Notes under the pieces: model-generated
The model's database searches: none
What the model was told of the DNA's origin: nothing
Seen by the model: only the letters and a program-made list of their open reading frames with translations
Made by a program: the position numbers and the translations under genes
Sequence record: MN850644.1
Source: Escherichia phage ekra
Strand: one strand, 5' to 3'
DNA: 64,000 nucleotides
Part shown: positions 51,727-54,476 of the stretch, in pieces
How the letters are laid out: every line of letters begins with the position of its first letter
How positions within the stretch are numbered: position 1 is the stretch's first letter

Positions 51727-51821
51727 GTGAAAGAGGTCTGAAGTTGTGCCGCTAACTCAACTCCGTGGAATTTGTTACGGTCTTCAGTTGACACCAGCGG
51801 TCTTTCACTTGACCTCTGAAT

Positions 51822-52228: not shown

Positions 52229-52483
52229 ATTAAATCTTTTTAGAGAACTTCTAAGAACCTAAGCAACAAGGTTCCACAACAAGCTGTAATAACCTTAGAA
52301 GCCCTCTAAAAAGACCTAAAAAGGTCTTTGCATAGTCTTGTTTAATCCGGTGACTAGAACCTTTGGAGAGCTTGATATTATCTCTTCTCCATGACACCTA
52401 CTAGGTGTTTTATCAGTGTGTACGACAATACACGAGGGATACCAAAGCAACATCCGAATGAAGCTTGGCTTTAAATCTTATTA

Positions 52484-52573: not shown

Positions 52574-52586
52574 CCTAATAAGACTT

Positions 52587-52669
52587 TGGCATGGGACGGA
52601 GGAGTTGAACCCCTTTGAAACGGTTTTGGAGGCCGTTGCTCATGCCTTAGAGTCTTAACATCGTCCCAC
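52587..52669 (-). tRNA. tRNA-Trp (anticodon CCA), boundaries uncertain
   Basis: Anticodon stem ACGGT/GCCGT, loop CTCCAAA; T-loop AGTTGAA; element ~7 nt longer than canonical, D region ambiguous. Confidence 0.4.
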
Positions 52670-52811
52670 ACTATAATTCGAAGCTTACCGTATTTTCGCA
52701 ACACTGTAAAGCCCCTTCTCAGATTATTTACATGTTCTGGAAAACATGAGATACAGACCACCTCCTTACACGGAGACCCGATAAGGTCGTCTAAGCAATC
52801 TGCTAACTATT

Positions 52812-52888: not shown

Positions 52889-53135
52889 ATTAATCTTTAA
52901 AGACTCTCTTAGAAAGCCCTTAAAGATGCCCACCTTATTAATCATACCGTGGGCGAGTACGCCAAATTCTTTGATGAGGGATTGGAAGACCTCACTGGTG
53001 TTTAGCCTATCAAGCTACTGCCAGAAAAACATTGTCGTTTGCATTTATTTTAAATTTGCAAAATAGACGCTACGCAACGAAAACTAAGGTTACTATAAAG
53101 TGGTCACATGTTAATGTCAACAACTTTATTGAAAT

Positions 53136-53293: not shown

Positions 53294-53369
53294 TGGTAGA
53301 AGTGGAGGGATTCGAACCCATCGCCTGTCAGATTAAAAGTCTGCCGCATCACCATTCTGCTACACTTCC
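53294..53369 (-). tRNA. tRNA-Lys (anticodon TTT)
   Basis: T-arm GGAGGGATTCGAACCC; anticodon loop CTTTTAA. Confidence 0.6.
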
Positions 53370-53827
53370 ATTAAATTATCTTTGTAGATAAGCTACCCAG
53401 ACTTGCTTAAGGTCTGTAGCGATGTGCTTTGTTGGGTTTAAATCTAGAATTTACCCTTTCACCCTTTGTGGTCGCATACTCACAGGTAAGCTTAATAACT
53501 TATCTACAAAGATAATTACCAGACCGTTGTTTATCATCTTAAGTGCTACCATTACACCAACTCGACATCTGCCGAGTGAAGGAATCGAACCTTCGCCTTT
53601 TCTTTACCGGAGAAATAGATTGTTTAAGTTTTGCTGTAAACGGTCTTCTGTAAATTTGTTGAGCCAGACCAAGTTTTAAATTTTTTCAAAATTAAATTGG
53701 CTTGAAAATATCATACGTACTTGCTGAATTTGGTCTTCTGCTCCTTTAAAGAATACTCGTAAGAACTCTTTAAGGGAGGGGCTAAATAGCCCTCTCAAAA
53801 CATCATCTTGAAATACTTATTATAATT

Positions 53828-53905
53828 TGGCGGTTACGAAGGGATTTGAACCCTCATCATCTCCCGTGACAGGGGAGTATTTTAACCAGATTAAACTACA
53901 TAACC
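53828..53905 (-). tRNA. tRNA-Asp (anticodon GTC)
   Basis: Anticodon stem CTCCC/GGGAG perfect, loop CTGTCAC; T-arm AAGGG-ATTTGAA-CCCTC. Confidence 0.65.
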
Positions 53906-53911
53906 TTTATT

Positions 53912-53999
53912 TGGTGTGCCGTGTAGGAGTCGAACCTACCGAGTCTCAATGACAAGGGATTTACAGTCCCCACCGCTACCATCTACGGGATAACGACAC
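53912..53999 (-). tRNA. tRNA-Tyr (anticodon GTA), long variable arm
   Basis: 88-nt element; T-arm GTAGG-AGTCGAA-CCTAC; loop CTGTAAA; ~15-nt variable arm. Confidence 0.55.
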
Positions 54000-54070
54000 A
54001 TTTTATTATTCTATTCAGGCTAAGGACTTGCACCTTACAAATCGGTGAGCAATCGCTTCTCTCCTAAATT

Positions 54071-54147
54071 TGGCGGTTAGTCAGGGATTCGAACCCTGTG
54101 CCATTCGCTTAACAGGCGACCGCACATACCTTATGTGCTTCCTAACC
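54071..54147 (-). tRNA. tRNA-Asn (anticodon GTT)
   Basis: T-arm CAGGG-ATTCGAA-CCCTG; anticodon loop CTGTTAA; D stem GCAC/GTGC. Confidence 0.6.
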
Positions 54148-54225
54148 TTAATACATTGCCAGACCGTGTTTTTTTCTTTTATCCGCAAAAAGTAGTTTGT
54201 TGCTGCATACGGTCTTCTGCAAAAT

Positions 54226-54302
54226 TGGAGGCGGGTGCAGGAGTCGAACCTACCGATACCATGCTAATGAGACATGTGAGACGCCCTTTCTCTATACCCG
54301 CA
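54226..54302 (-). tRNA. tRNA-Met, second CAT-anticodon gene
   Basis: T-loop AGTCGAA; anticodon stem CATG/CATG, loop CTCATTA. Confidence 0.5.
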
Positions 54303-54391
54303 ATTCTTAATGACCAGACCAAATATCTTCTTTGTCCGATTTATCTTCAGATGAATAAGATTAAGTTTGCTGCAATTGGTCTTCTGTCAAA

Positions 54392-54469
54392 ACTGGCGTT
54401 CCAGAAGGGATTTGAACCCTCAAATATCCACTTTGAAAGAGTGGTGACTTTACCGTTTTGTCTACTGGA
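54392..54469 (-). tRNA. tRNA-Glu (anticodon TTC)
   Basis: Acceptor GTTCCAG/CTGGAAC perfect; anticodon stem CCACT/AGTGG perfect, loop CTTTCAA. Confidence 0.65.
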
Positions 54470-54476
54470 ACATTAA

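What the first reader, a model, noticed from the sequence alone, without database searches (positions are those of the whole stretch)
53600..54400. Conserved ~25-nt spacer motif TTGCTGnAnnnGGTCTTCTGnAAA repeated four times between tRNA genes
The motif occurs at about 53625..53650, 53720..53745, 54195..54220 and 54320..54345. In two spacers it pairs with an upstream CCAGACCG segment to form a hairpin, and a related CGGTCTTCAG is at 51770. A repeated, partly structured spacer signal inside a tRNA array suggests processing sites, internal promoters or terminators, or remnants of a mobile or intron-like element.
Basis: seen in the sequence. Interest (0 to 1): 0.45.

Follow-up and report, generated by a model that had tools for sequence, protein, structure and literature searches.

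The report
Phage Y-RNA-like genes between tRNAs
The repeated "spacer motif" marks four small structured RNA genes sitting between the tRNA genes of a Felix O1-like phage; they most likely partner the Ro60-like RNA-binding protein encoded just upstream, and the same RNA design recurs next to that protein's gene in many unrelated phages.

Summary
The motif is real: exactly four copies, all inside the tRNA array (expected 0.06). The fourth is at 54367-54386, not 54320-54345.

The array is on the minus strand. Read there, each copy is the 5' part of a small RNA unit (67-138 nt):
- a 7-bp helix at a fixed distance (-10 to -4) from an invariant single-stranded CAGCAA;
- a variable interior;
- the complementary 3' strand followed by G;
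- an extra covarying 4-bp outer stem.

All four copies pair this way, not two. Unit A's interior is a tRNA-like domain with a closed acceptor stem, arranged as in the bacterial Y RNA YrlA.

The ORF directly upstream on the same strand (DUF2828+DUF7788) is predicted to fold like Ro60/Rsr. The same helix-CAGCAA units lie beside DUF2828 genes in 12 of 14 phage lineages sampled. All 7 helix pairs covary (99% paired, 0/500 shuffles). A model built without any Felix-like sequence recovers three of the four window units and nothing else significant.

The units carry no promoter or terminator signal.

Best reading: Y-RNA-like partners of a phage Ro60-like protein, using a recognition motif different from the canonical CGAA. 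RNA-protein binding is inferred, not shown. The design also resembles Dictyostelium Class I RNAs.

The parts
54311..54389 (-). Unit D. Outer stem UGAC/GUCA; AGA bulge; 7-bp helix AGACCAA/UUGGUCU (5' strand 54382-54376, 3' strand 54322-54316); linker UUG; CAGCAA 54372-54367; conserved G at 54315. Starts 4 nt after the CCA of tRNA-Glu.
   Evidence: Fold; strict descriptor; model R1, 31.1 bits, E 7e-5.
54156..54222 (-). Unit C. Outer stem UUGC/GCAA; helix AGACCGU/ACGGUCU (-10 position at 54215); CAGCAA 54205-54200; conserved G at 54160. Starts 3-4 nt after the CCA of tRNA-Met.
   Evidence: R1 27.5 bits, E 5.5e-4. The outer stem shows a compensatory change against the orthologues: UUGC/GCAA versus UUAC/GUAA.
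53661..53743 (-). Unit B. Outer stem GAGC/GCUC; helix AGACCAA/UUGGUCU (-10 position at 53736); CAGCAA 53726-53721; conserved G at 53665; AU-rich interior hairpin.
   Evidence: R1 25.7 bits, E 1.5e-3.
53516..53653 (-). Unit A. Outer stem UUAC/GUAA; helix AGACCGU(U)/(A)ACGGUCU (-10 position at 53646); UUA-CAGCAA (CAGCAA 53636-53631); conserved G at 53520. The interior is a tRNA-like domain.
   Evidence: Fold; strict descriptor; Rfam tRNA partial match, 22.6 bits, below the 29-bit cutoff.
53543..53615 (-). tRNA-like domain inside unit A. Variable/anticodon-like hairpin 53615-53599; T arm GAAGG-UUCGAUU-CCUUC 53594-53578; acceptor stem closed by the loop AGAU, 53577-53560; D arm GUGU-AAUGGUA-GCAC 53557-53543.
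   Evidence: Read from the sequence; minimum-free-energy fold; module order V-T-AS-D as described for YrlA (PMC4201824). ARAGORN calls no tRNA here.
54721..56136 (-). ORF of 471 aa (Pfam DUF2828 + DUF7788) with a Ro60/Rsr-like predicted fold. The proposed protein partner of the units.
   Evidence: PHROG 850, 'RNA-binding protein'; AF2 model, pLDDT 85.7; the 12 best Foldseek PDB hits are all Ro60/Rsr/TROVE, E 4e-8 to 2e-6.
54582..54702 (-). Two sigma-70-like promoters (TTGACA-17-TAATAT at 54702-54674; TTGACA-18-TAAAGT at 54611-54582) upstream of tRNA-Pro. Likely start of the transcript that carries the tRNAs and the units.
   Evidence: consensus scan only.
56176..56205 (-). Sigma-70-like promoter (TTGACA-18-TAAAGT) upstream of the Ro60-like ORF.
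   Evidence: consensus scan only.
54226..54471 (-). tRNA-Glu (54394-54471) and tRNA-Met (54226-54302), which bracket units D and C. Their CCA ends and 5' ends are the presumed processing boundaries.
   Evidence: ARAGORN; sequence.

Best explanation
The four motif copies are the conserved cores of four small non-coding RNA genes (units A-D). They are co-transcribed with the tRNAs on the minus strand and probably cut out by tRNA-processing enzymes.

Each RNA has three parts:
- a 7-bp helix formed by its 5' and 3' parts;
- immediately after the 5' strand, a single-stranded NUA-CAGCAA element;
- a variable interior.

In unit A the interior is a tRNA mimic whose acceptor stem is closed by a loop.

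The most likely function is that of Y RNAs. The helix-CAGCAA module would bind the Ro60-like (HEAT ring + vWA) protein encoded directly upstream. The variable module would recruit or gate other factors, such as tRNA-handling enzymes or exoribonucleases, during infection.

Shown here: the RNA family, its structure, and its genetic linkage to the DUF2828 gene.
Inferred: physical binding to the protein, the processing route, and the downstream role (RNA quality control or repair, or counter-defence).
For: 1. Motif statistics: 4 copies against 0.06 expected.
2. All four copies fold identically, with different but complementary outer stems: UUAC/GUAA, GAGC/GCUC, UUGC/GCAA, UGAC/GUCA.
3. Orthologues in Felix O1, Moogle, Mordin and Sf17 keep all four units. 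They show one compensatory double change (unit C outer stem) and G.U wobble changes that pair only in minus-strand RNA.
4. The upstream ORF is DUF2828+DUF7788. Its AF2 model (pLDDT 85.7) matches only Ro60/Rsr/TROVE structures over the full length among its best hits. Mycobacteriophage homologues (34% identity, E 1e-76) are annotated 'Ro-like RNA binding protein'.
5. A strict descriptor (7-bp helix at -10..-4 from CAGCAA, 3' strand followed by G) finds exactly the 4 units in the window and 49 units in 17 related loci. Every one is on the strand of the DUF2828 gene and beside it or in its tRNA array. It finds none in the 30-kb tRNA region of T5, a phage in which I saw no DUF2828 gene.
6. Across 31 distinct units from 11 phage lineages, 7 of 7 pairs show double-sided changes, and 99.1% of cells pair against 58% in shuffles (0/500) and 33-43% in slid registers.
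7. Covariance model R1, built only from non-Ounavirinae units, recovers units D, C and B in the window (E 7e-5 to 1.5e-3) with no other significant hit.
8. tRNA-like units with the YrlA module order occur in Klebsiella FBKp34, Samty, Cronobacter S13, Bacillus Nate and Ralstonia RSP15. The Samty unit hits Rfam YrlA at 37.9 bits, E 7e-7.
9. Literature: in the Felixounavirus Bas63 the orthologous protein, gp130, resembles Ro60 structurally and counters the ppl defence. The authors only speculated that some annotated tRNAs might be Y RNAs (10.1101/2024.10.10.617714).
Against: - No experiment shows that these RNAs accumulate or bind the protein.
- The canonical Ro-binding motif (GNCGAAN0-1G / CGAA) is absent. 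The window has CAGAAG plus CAGCAA instead.
- Rfam YrlA does not match unit A, even in a 161-nt search at E<=10.
- The protein does not match Pfam TROVE or any Ro60 chain by sequence.
- Three sampled DUF2828 loci gave no strict-descriptor hit within about 4-5 kb. Pseudomonas Milchi does carry a CAGCAC variant, Vibrio PVA8 has only a weak candidate, and the Yersinia jumbo phage has none.
- The 3' strands in the covariation alignment were chosen by complementarity, so the percentage paired is partly built in. The fixed register and the decoy rate of 16% against 56% observed are not.
- The strict descriptor alone is only moderately specific: shuffles average 0.55 hits per window, with a maximum of 4.
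Confidence: 0.7

Rival explanations
1. The hairpins are only tRNA-precursor processing or punctuation signals (RNase E, RNase III or RNase P determinants), with no life of their own after cleavage.
For: Units C and D begin 3-5 nt after the CCA ends of tRNA-Met and tRNA-Glu, with A/U-rich linkers (AUUUU, GUUUU). tRNA 5' ends follow about 10 nt after the units. No unit has its own promoter or terminator.
Against: - The same units sit next to the DUF2828 gene where no tRNA flanks them: three in Samty and three in the Staphylococcus phage directly downstream of the gene, and two in Campylobacter CP30A just upstream of it.
- An invariant single-stranded hexamer at a fixed distance from a covarying helix, conserved across Proteobacteria, Firmicutes, Actinobacteria and Campylobacter phages, is not expected for host-specific RNase sites.
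- The T5 tRNA region has none.
Confidence: 0.1
2. They are small RNAs of this conserved family but act independently of the Ro60-like protein. Possibilities include decoys or sponges for a host factor (PNPase, an anticodon nuclease, an RRM-type protein) or base-pairing regulators that use CAGCAA as a seed.
For: Binding to the Ro60-like protein is not shown. The canonical CGAA motif is missing. Dictyostelium Class I RNAs, which share the design, are known to bind an RRM protein, Rnp1A/CIBP, directly. Many interior loops resemble anticodon loops.
Against: The genetic linkage to DUF2828 genes is tight and strand-specific in 12 of 14 lineages. That includes lineages where the neighbourhood shares nothing else.
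Confidence: 0.15
3. The repeats are DNA-level elements: remnants of a miniature mobile element or of homing-endonuclease/intron insertions, with terminal inverted repeats CAGAAGACC...GGTCTGG.
For: Short inverted repeats flank variable inserts. HNH endonuclease genes populate other spacers of the array in Felix O1. Some relatives show indels of about 60 nt in this region.
Against: - Outer stems differ between copies yet remain complementary.
- Orthologues show compensatory and G.U changes valid only in minus-strand RNA.
- The units keep the same positions across Felixounavirus and Mooglevirus.
- No direct target-site duplications are seen.
- The helix sequence is completely different in other phages, while the single-stranded CAGCAA is invariant.
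Confidence: 0.03
4. They are self-cleaving ribozymes (for example HDV-like 'theta' ribozymes) that release tRNA 3' ends.
For: They lie immediately 3' of tRNA CCA ends. From my own knowledge (I did not look up a paper here), phage tRNA arrays are reported to carry HDV-like ribozymes.
Against: No ribozyme family matched in Rfam at E<=10. Inspection found no nested double-pseudoknot pairing: the repeated nCAG segments are direct repeats, not complementary. The interior is not conserved between units.
Confidence: 0.02

Closest known systems
Bacterial and phage Y RNAs (YrlA/YrlB, Yrn1, phiLo Yrl1/2) bound by Ro60/Rsr
   Same: - Small RNAs encoded beside, and on the same strand as, a Ro60-fold protein gene.
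- 5' and 3' ends pair into a stem next to a conserved protein-binding element.
- Modular variable interior.
- One paralogue (unit A) carries a tRNA-like domain with a T arm, a loop-closed acceptor stem and a D arm, in the YrlA order.
- Shorter paralogues lack that domain, like YrlB.
   Different: - The conserved element is NUA-CAGCAA, 3 nt after a 7-bp helix, not GNCGAAN0-1G/CGAA.
- The protein belongs to Pfam DUF2828/DUF7788, not TROVE, and resembles Ro60 only at fold level.
- The units are embedded in a tRNA array.
- The Rfam YrlA model does not match the window units.
Dictyostelium Class I RNAs (Rfam RF01414)
   Same: - Size 42-65 nt.
- A short terminal stem that begins 10 nt before CAGCAA, followed by a single-stranded CCUUACAGCAA motif directly after the 5' strand.
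- Variable remainder and a 3' end of ...CUG.
- The Rfam model, built from Dictyostelium only, gives full-length sub-threshold hits (22.7-29.8 bits) to seven phage units, six in Aeromonas phage LAh_6 and one in Listeria phage WIL-1.
- Pfam calls DUF2828 a family of 'eukaryotes and viruses' (from my own knowledge of the Pfam entry, not checked here).
   Different: - Eukaryotic, with their own upstream promoter element (DUSE).
- 6-bp stem plus a 4-nt linker, against 7 bp plus 3 nt.
- The known direct binder is the RRM protein Rnp1A.
- All hits are below the 41.5-bit gathering score, and window unit A scores only 12.8 bits.
- I could not test whether Dictyostelium has a DUF2828 protein.
Stable small RNAs of unknown function in the tRNA clusters of T5 (RNA I, III, IV, 1, 2, 2H, 3, X) and T4 (species 1 and 2)
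   Same: Non-tRNA stable RNAs, some called tRNA-like, encoded between tRNA genes and co-processed with them (T5 annotation; T4 from general knowledge).
   Different: The T5 tRNA region has no helix-CAGCAA unit, and I saw no DUF2828 gene there. No sequence or motif relationship was found.
Bas63 gp130 (Felixounavirus Ro60-like counter-defence protein)
   Same: It is the corresponding gene: a Ro60 structural homologue directly upstream of the tRNA genes in a Felixounavirus.
   Different: That work characterised the protein's phenotype as a counter to the ppl defence, and only guessed that some annotated tRNAs might be Y RNAs. The RNAs proposed here lie in the unannotated spacers.

Membership tests
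Y RNA / YrlA-type Ro60-associated ncRNA | Encoded close to, and on the same strand as, a Ro60 orthologue | tested here: met
   The units lie 330-2600 nt downstream of the Ro60-fold ORF at 54721-56136, on the same strand. The protein is Ro60-like by predicted fold only.
Y RNA / YrlA-type Ro60-associated ncRNA | 5' and 3' ends pair into a stem that closes the RNA | tested here: met
   Folds. Covariation in 7 of 7 pairs across 31 units. Compensatory change in orthologues.
Y RNA / YrlA-type Ro60-associated ncRNA | Conserved GNCGAAN0-1G / CGAA (metazoan GGUCCGA) element in the 5' strand | tested here: not met
   The window units read (G/A)CAGAAGACC. There is no CGAA. The invariant element is CAGCAA.
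Y RNA / YrlA-type Ro60-associated ncRNA | tRNA-like domain (V, T arm, closed acceptor stem-loop, D arm) | tested here: met
   Present in unit A only (53543-53615). Units B-D lack it, as YrlB does.
Y RNA / YrlA-type Ro60-associated ncRNA | Rfam RF02553 score at or above gathering (69 bits) | tested here: not met
   No YrlA hit on unit A at E<=10. The related Samty unit scores 37.9 bits.
Y RNA / YrlA-type Ro60-associated ncRNA | Physical association with the Ro60 protein | not testable with these tools
   Needs EMSA or co-immunoprecipitation.
Ro60 / TROVE protein | HEAT-repeat ring followed by a vWA domain | tested here: met
   The AF2 model has helices to about residue 263, then an alpha/beta domain. 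Full-length Foldseek matches to 2i91, 1yvp, 2nvo, 9kop and 9l5y: probability 1.00, TM 0.42-0.57.
Ro60 / TROVE protein | Sequence membership (Pfam TROVE PF05731, or a sequence hit to solved Ro60 chains) | tested here: not met
   Pfam gives only DUF7788 and DUF2828. Neither phmmer nor the profile search hits Ro60 in the PDB.
Dictyostelium Class I RNA (RF01414) | Terminal stem plus the adjacent CCUUACAGCAA motif, scoring at or above gathering (41.5 bits) | tested here: not met
   The design is shared, but scores fall below threshold: window unit A 12.8 bits, relatives 22.7-29.8 bits.
Dictyostelium Class I RNA (RF01414) | Eukaryotic gene with the DUSE promoter element; binds Rnp1A | not testable with these tools
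   Not applicable to a phage. I could not check for a common protein partner (whether the Class I-associated protein DDB_G0281243 is a DUF2828 protein).
tRNA | Cloverleaf with an open acceptor end and an anticodon arm, called by tRNA finders | tested here: not met
   ARAGORN finds none between 53370 and 53827. Rfam tRNA gives 22.6 bits, below 29, and only a partial match. The acceptor stem is closed by the loop AGAU.
Sigma-70 promoter / intrinsic terminator | -35/-10 hexamers, or a GC hairpin followed by a U tract, at the motif | tested here: not met
   No minus-strand site at any unit. The few + strand matches are T arms or anticodon arms read backwards.

The most novel reading that the evidence does not exclude
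The helix + NUA-CAGCAA RNAs may be the hallmark partners of DUF2828-type Ro-like proteins wherever those proteins occur. On that reading, Dictyostelium Class I RNAs would be eukaryotic members of the same ribonucleoprotein system. They are abundant, developmentally regulated and have no known mechanism. Class-I-like candidates dismissed in plants, such as Arabidopsis ath_can_1, could belong too. The uncharacterised Class I-associated protein DDB_G0281243, or another DUF2828 protein, would be the missing Ro-like component. That would define a previously unrecognised Ro/Y-like system shared by phages and eukaryotes.
Probability: 0.3. Interest if true: 0.9.

Novelty: new variant of a known kind. 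Interest (0 to 1): 0.72.

Why it matters
Ro60-Y RNA particles are a paradigm of RNA quality control, and their roles in phages are only starting to emerge. Known examples are the Thermus phage phiLo Ro60, which binds host PNPase, and Bas63 gp130, which counters the ppl defence.

This finding supplies the missing RNA candidates for the Ro60-like protein of Felix O1-type phages:
- It locates them in "empty" tRNA spacers rather than among the annotated tRNAs.
- It defines a simple, searchable signature (7-bp helix, 3 nt, CAGCAA, ... 3' strand, G).
- That signature marks an apparently undescribed RNA family next to DUF2828 genes in phages of at least four bacterial phyla.

It makes binding, mutational and defence-evasion experiments directly designable. 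It explains why annotation pipelines call odd pseudo-tRNAs here. It also offers a testable bridge to the unexplained Class I RNAs of social amoebae.

Tried and rejected
- **Permuted or split tRNA (unit A).** The 3' two-thirds of a tRNA precede the 5' acceptor strand and D arm. But the acceptor ends are joined by a 4-nt loop, and the whole domain is closed by the family helix. It is a YrlA-style mimic, not a permuted tRNA gene.
- **HDV-like, hammerhead or other ribozymes.** No Rfam hit and no consistent pseudoknot pairing.
- **K-turn reading of the AGA/G internal loop.** The required tandem G.A arrangement is not present (inspection only).
- **Promoter reading of TTGCTG...TAAATT on the + strand.** Wrong strand for the array and wrong spacing, and the scan does not report it.
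- **The 51770 'related' copy.** A structured spacer, but not a family member.
- **Sequence-level link of the protein to Ro60.** None found; only the fold search shows it.
- **Whether Dictyostelium DDB_G0281243 is a DUF2828 protein.** No paper text or supplement held gives its domains, Avesson 2011 is not in the library, and the afdb50 fold library was unavailable.
- **Literature search for the motif string.** Nothing relevant.
- **A first, loose helix search (6 bp or more).** Uninformative: about half of the decoy motifs also passed. I replaced it with the fixed-register descriptor.
Full report
**Origin and orientation**

The region 53360-54560 is 99.4% identical to Escherichia phage JH2 and 94-99% identical to many other Felixounavirus genomes. 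ARAGORN finds 25 tRNA genes between 49636 and 54555, all on the minus strand. The finding therefore has to be read as its reverse complement.

The pattern TTGCTGNANNNGGTCTTCTG occurs exactly four times in the window: at 53631, 53721, 54200 and 54367, all without mismatch. Shuffles expect 0.06. Three points need correcting:

It points at the partner segment.
- The partner GGTCTGG (minus strand) occurs four times in the array, once downstream of each motif. All four copies pair, not two.
- The CGGTCTTCAG near 51770 shares only a 9-mer with one mismatch. It belongs to a different structured spacer.

**Anatomy on the transcribed strand**

Each copy reads nnnC-AGA-AGACC(R)N-NUN-CAGCAA ... N(Y)GGUCU-G-Gnnn. 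RNAfold gives the same architecture for all four:

- a 4-bp outer stem that differs between copies yet stays complementary (A UUAC/GUAA, B GAGC/GCUC, C UUGC/GCAA, D UGAC/GUCA);
- an AGA/G internal loop;
- a 7-bp helix;
- a single-stranded CAGCAA three nucleotides after the 5' strand of that helix;
- a variable interior of 31-101 nt.

The interior of unit A contains a hairpin, a canonical T arm (GAAGG-UUCGAUU-CCUUC), an acceptor-like stem closed by the tetraloop AGAU, and a D arm (GUGU-AAUGGUA-GCAC). The Rfam tRNA model matches only its 3' two-thirds, at 22.6 bits (below the 29-bit cutoff), and ARAGORN calls no tRNA there. This order (5' stem, V, T, closed acceptor, D, 3' stem) is the one described for the bacterial Y RNA YrlA (PMC4201824).

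**Transcription and processing context**

Units D and C begin 3-5 nt after the encoded CCA of tRNA-Glu and tRNA-Met and end about 10 nt before the next tRNA. Three promoter-like sites with a perfect TTGACA hexamer lie on the minus strand: one before the upstream ORF (56205) and two before tRNA-Pro (54702, 54611). There is no promoter-like or terminator-like site at any unit.

I infer that the units are made as parts of the tRNA precursor. RNase P would release them on the 3' side and RNase E-type cleavage in the A/U-rich linkers on the 5' side. This step is inferred, not shown.

**The neighbouring protein**

The ORF at 54721-56136 (minus strand, 471 aa) lies directly upstream of the array. The evidence on it is:

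- It matches Pfam DUF7788 (E 2.6e-43) and DUF2828 (E 2.8e-29), and PHROG 850 'RNA-binding protein'.
- It shows no sequence similarity to solved structures.
- An AlphaFold2 model built from 31 homologues has pLDDT 85.7 and pTM 0.87. It has an all-helical N-terminal two-thirds and an alpha/beta C-terminal domain.
- The twelve best Foldseek hits in the PDB are all Ro60/Rsr/TROVE structures aligned over the full length: Xenopus and human Ro60, Deinococcus Rsr and Thermus phage phiLo Ro60. E-values run from 4e-8 to 2e-6 and TM-scores from 0.42 to 0.57. Isolated vWA domains follow.
- tblastn finds homologues in 709 phage records. The mycobacteriophage ones (34% identity, E 1e-76) are annotated 'Ro-like RNA binding protein'.

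**Comparative evidence within Ounavirinae**

Units A+B are found in 252 phage records, close to the roughly 249 records that hold a protein at least 80% identical. Felix O1, Sf17, Mordin and Moogle keep all four units at the same positions. Three kinds of change point to selection on minus-strand RNA:

- The outer stem of unit C differs from the window by a compensatory double change (UUGC/GCAA against UUAC/GUAA).
- Unit B changes G-C to G.U.
- The 7-bp helix shows A-to-G and C-to-U changes that create G.U pairs. On the other strand these would be C.A mismatches.

**Comparative evidence across phages**

I fetched the DUF2828 neighbourhood from phages of these 13 lineages:

- Klebsiella, Mycobacterium, Aeromonas, Cronobacter and Vibrio;
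- Campylobacter, Listeria, Enterococcus, Staphylococcus and Bacillus;
- Ralstonia, Pseudomonas and Yersinia.

In the Klebsiella phage FBKp34 (protein 51% identical) the gene again precedes a tRNA array, and the gap holds several units. One of them is tRNA-like: AGAAGCU-UUA-CAGCAA ... T arm, closed acceptor, D arm ... AGCUUCU. Samty has three units directly after the gene. Its tRNA-like unit hits Rfam YrlA at 37.9 bits, E 7e-7.

Aligning 31 distinct units on CAGCAA shows a helix at exactly -10 to -4 in 30-31 of 31 units, with all four Watson-Crick pair types at four of the positions. The linker is most often UUA, and a nearly invariant G follows the 3' strand.

Counting pairs on that alignment gives:

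- 7 of 7 pairs with changes on both sides;
- 93 doubly changed cells;
- 99.1% paired against 58% in shuffles (0 of 500);
- 33-43% paired when the register is slid.

One caveat applies. The 3' strands were located by complementarity, so the paired fraction is partly built in. The fixed register is not built in. Nor is the excess over decoy motifs: 56% of ACAGCAA sites have a helix, against 16% for permuted motifs.

A strict descriptor finds exactly the four units in the window (shuffles average 0.55). It finds 49 units in the 17 loci, every one on the strand of the DUF2828 gene. It finds none in 30 kb of the T5 tRNA region. Pseudomonas phage Milchi uses CAGCAC instead. The Yersinia jumbo phage shows none within 4 kb, and Vibrio PVA8 shows only a weak candidate.

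**Independent detection**

Covariance model R1 was built from 20 units of nine phages of other families, with no Ounavirinae sequence. In the window it finds units D (31.1 bits, E 7e-5), C (27.5 bits, E 5.5e-4) and B (25.7 bits, E 1.5e-3) as full-length matches, and nothing else below E = 3. Unit A is missed because of its 101-nt interior. R1 also finds the Felix O1 and Moogle orthologues and four Milchi units, and finds nothing in T5.

**Interpretation**

Three lines of evidence point to Y-RNA-like partners of the Ro60-like protein:

- the strong, strand-specific linkage to a Ro60-fold protein gene;
- the closing stem with an adjacent conserved element;
- the modular interiors, with a YrlA-style tRNA mimic in one paralogue.

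What is shown is the RNA family, its structure and its linkage to the gene. What is inferred is binding, processing and function.

By analogy with Rsr-Y RNA-PNPase complexes and with phiLo Ro60 (PMC12135203), the helix-CAGCAA module would dock on the ring. The variable module would tether or gate other factors.

In other phages the DUF2828 gene often neighbours tRNA arrays and genes for an RNA ligase or RtcB-type tRNA splicing ligase, a CCA-adding enzyme or a tRNA amidotransferase. This suggests a role in tRNA or RNA surveillance or repair during infection, consistent with the counter-defence phenotype of Bas63 gp130. That role is speculative.

**Why this is not simply 'a Y RNA'**

- The canonical GNCGAAN0-1G/CGAA element is absent.
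- Rfam YrlA does not match the window units.
- The protein is not a sequence-level TROVE member.

I therefore file it as a new variant of a known kind. Rfam 15 has no family that covers these units, and a text search for the motif found nothing relevant.

**An unexpected resemblance**

The only Rfam family that repeatedly touches these units is the Dictyostelium Class I RNA. It gives seven full-length hits of 22.7-29.8 bits (six in Aeromonas phage LAh_6, one in Listeria phage WIL-1), all on descriptor-defined units, plus 12.8 bits on window unit A.

Class I RNAs are 42-65 nt. They have a short terminal stem, the single-stranded 11-mer CCUUACAGCAA directly after the 5' strand, a variable remainder and a ...CUG 3' end (PMC7919456). 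One example is GUUGAC-CUUA-CAGCAA...GUCAAC-UG. The stem starts 10 nt before CAGCAA in both families.

A pull-down with a Class I RNA recovered Rnp1A, GuaB, NdkC and an uncharacterised protein, DDB_G0281243. I could not determine whether that protein, or any Dictyostelium protein, belongs to DUF2828.

The published outgroup search lists, and dismisses, Class-I-like candidates in Arabidopsis and Capsaspora. Plants do carry DUF2828 proteins.

This link is a lead, not a result. All scores are below the gathering threshold, and a stem plus a 9-mer could be convergent or coincidental.

**Verdict**

The proposed promoter, terminator and mobile-element readings are not supported. The motif marks four Y-RNA-like genes of a widespread and apparently undescribed phage RNA family tied to DUF2828 Ro-like proteins.

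Noticed in passing
window 53370-53518 (minus strand): The 149-nt spacer between unit A and tRNA-Lys folds into a structure closed by a stem of about 24 bp. Its energy is -48.3 kcal/mol against -25.5 for shuffles (z = -6.7). It is another structured element of unknown nature.
   Followed up: partly
window 52229-52483, 52574-52811, 52889-53135 (minus strand): Three further long spacers (238-255 nt) in the array contain long inverted repeats and weak Rfam hits: a microRNA-precursor-like hairpin, a tRNA-Sec-like match at 52593-52667, and tmRNA_permuted at 27 bits. In Felix O1 the corresponding spacers hold HNH endonuclease ORFs.
   Followed up: no
It has no CAGCAA and is not hit by model R1.
   Followed up: yes
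L004 7003-7116; L008 6896-7016 and 7026-7138: In the Klebsiella and Cronobacter phages, over-long 'tRNAs' (113-121 nt) carry a local hairpin followed by UUACAGCA or AUUCAGCA, inserted between the D arm and the anticodon arm. This is the same helix-plus-motif module as in unit A, but in a circularly permuted arrangement, inside an otherwise complete tRNA with an open CCA end.
   Followed up: partly
L016 8292-8824: The four units of Pseudomonas phage Milchi have CAGCAC instead of the otherwise invariant CAGCAA. This natural variant could be compared with changes in its DUF2828 protein.
   Followed up: no
Alignment A4 (units from L005, L006, L010, L014, L004): Many short units have an interior hairpin whose 7-nt loop looks like an anticodon loop (CUGCUAA, UUGCAUA, CUGCAUG, UCGCUAA). 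They might be anticodon-stem-loop mimics.
   Followed up: no
L011 2429-2980: A sub-threshold ROOL RNA match (87 bits; gathering score 99.1) lies about 1 kb upstream of the DUF2828 gene and its three units in Listeria phage WIL-1. An RtcB-type 'tRNA splicing ligase' gene lies 1.3 kb downstream.
   Followed up: no
window 56218-56589 (minus strand): A 123-aa DUF5681 protein (PHROG 4114, unknown function) is encoded immediately upstream of the Ro60-like ORF. It keeps this position in Felix O1, Moogle, Mordin and Sf17.
   Followed up: no
L018 (T5, 28-42 kb of the record): The T5 record annotates eight experimentally known stable RNAs of unknown function, two of them called 'tRNA-like', between its tRNA genes. 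None carries the helix-CAGCAA signature.
   Followed up: partly
Supplement of PMC7919456 (files 19, 48, 56): The published outgroup scan for Class I RNAs lists an Arabidopsis candidate (UGUUUUCAUUACAGCAAUC...GAAAACUG, 40 bits) and a Capsaspora candidate. Both have the same stem-plus-UUACAGCAA design and were dismissed as too few.
   Followed up: no
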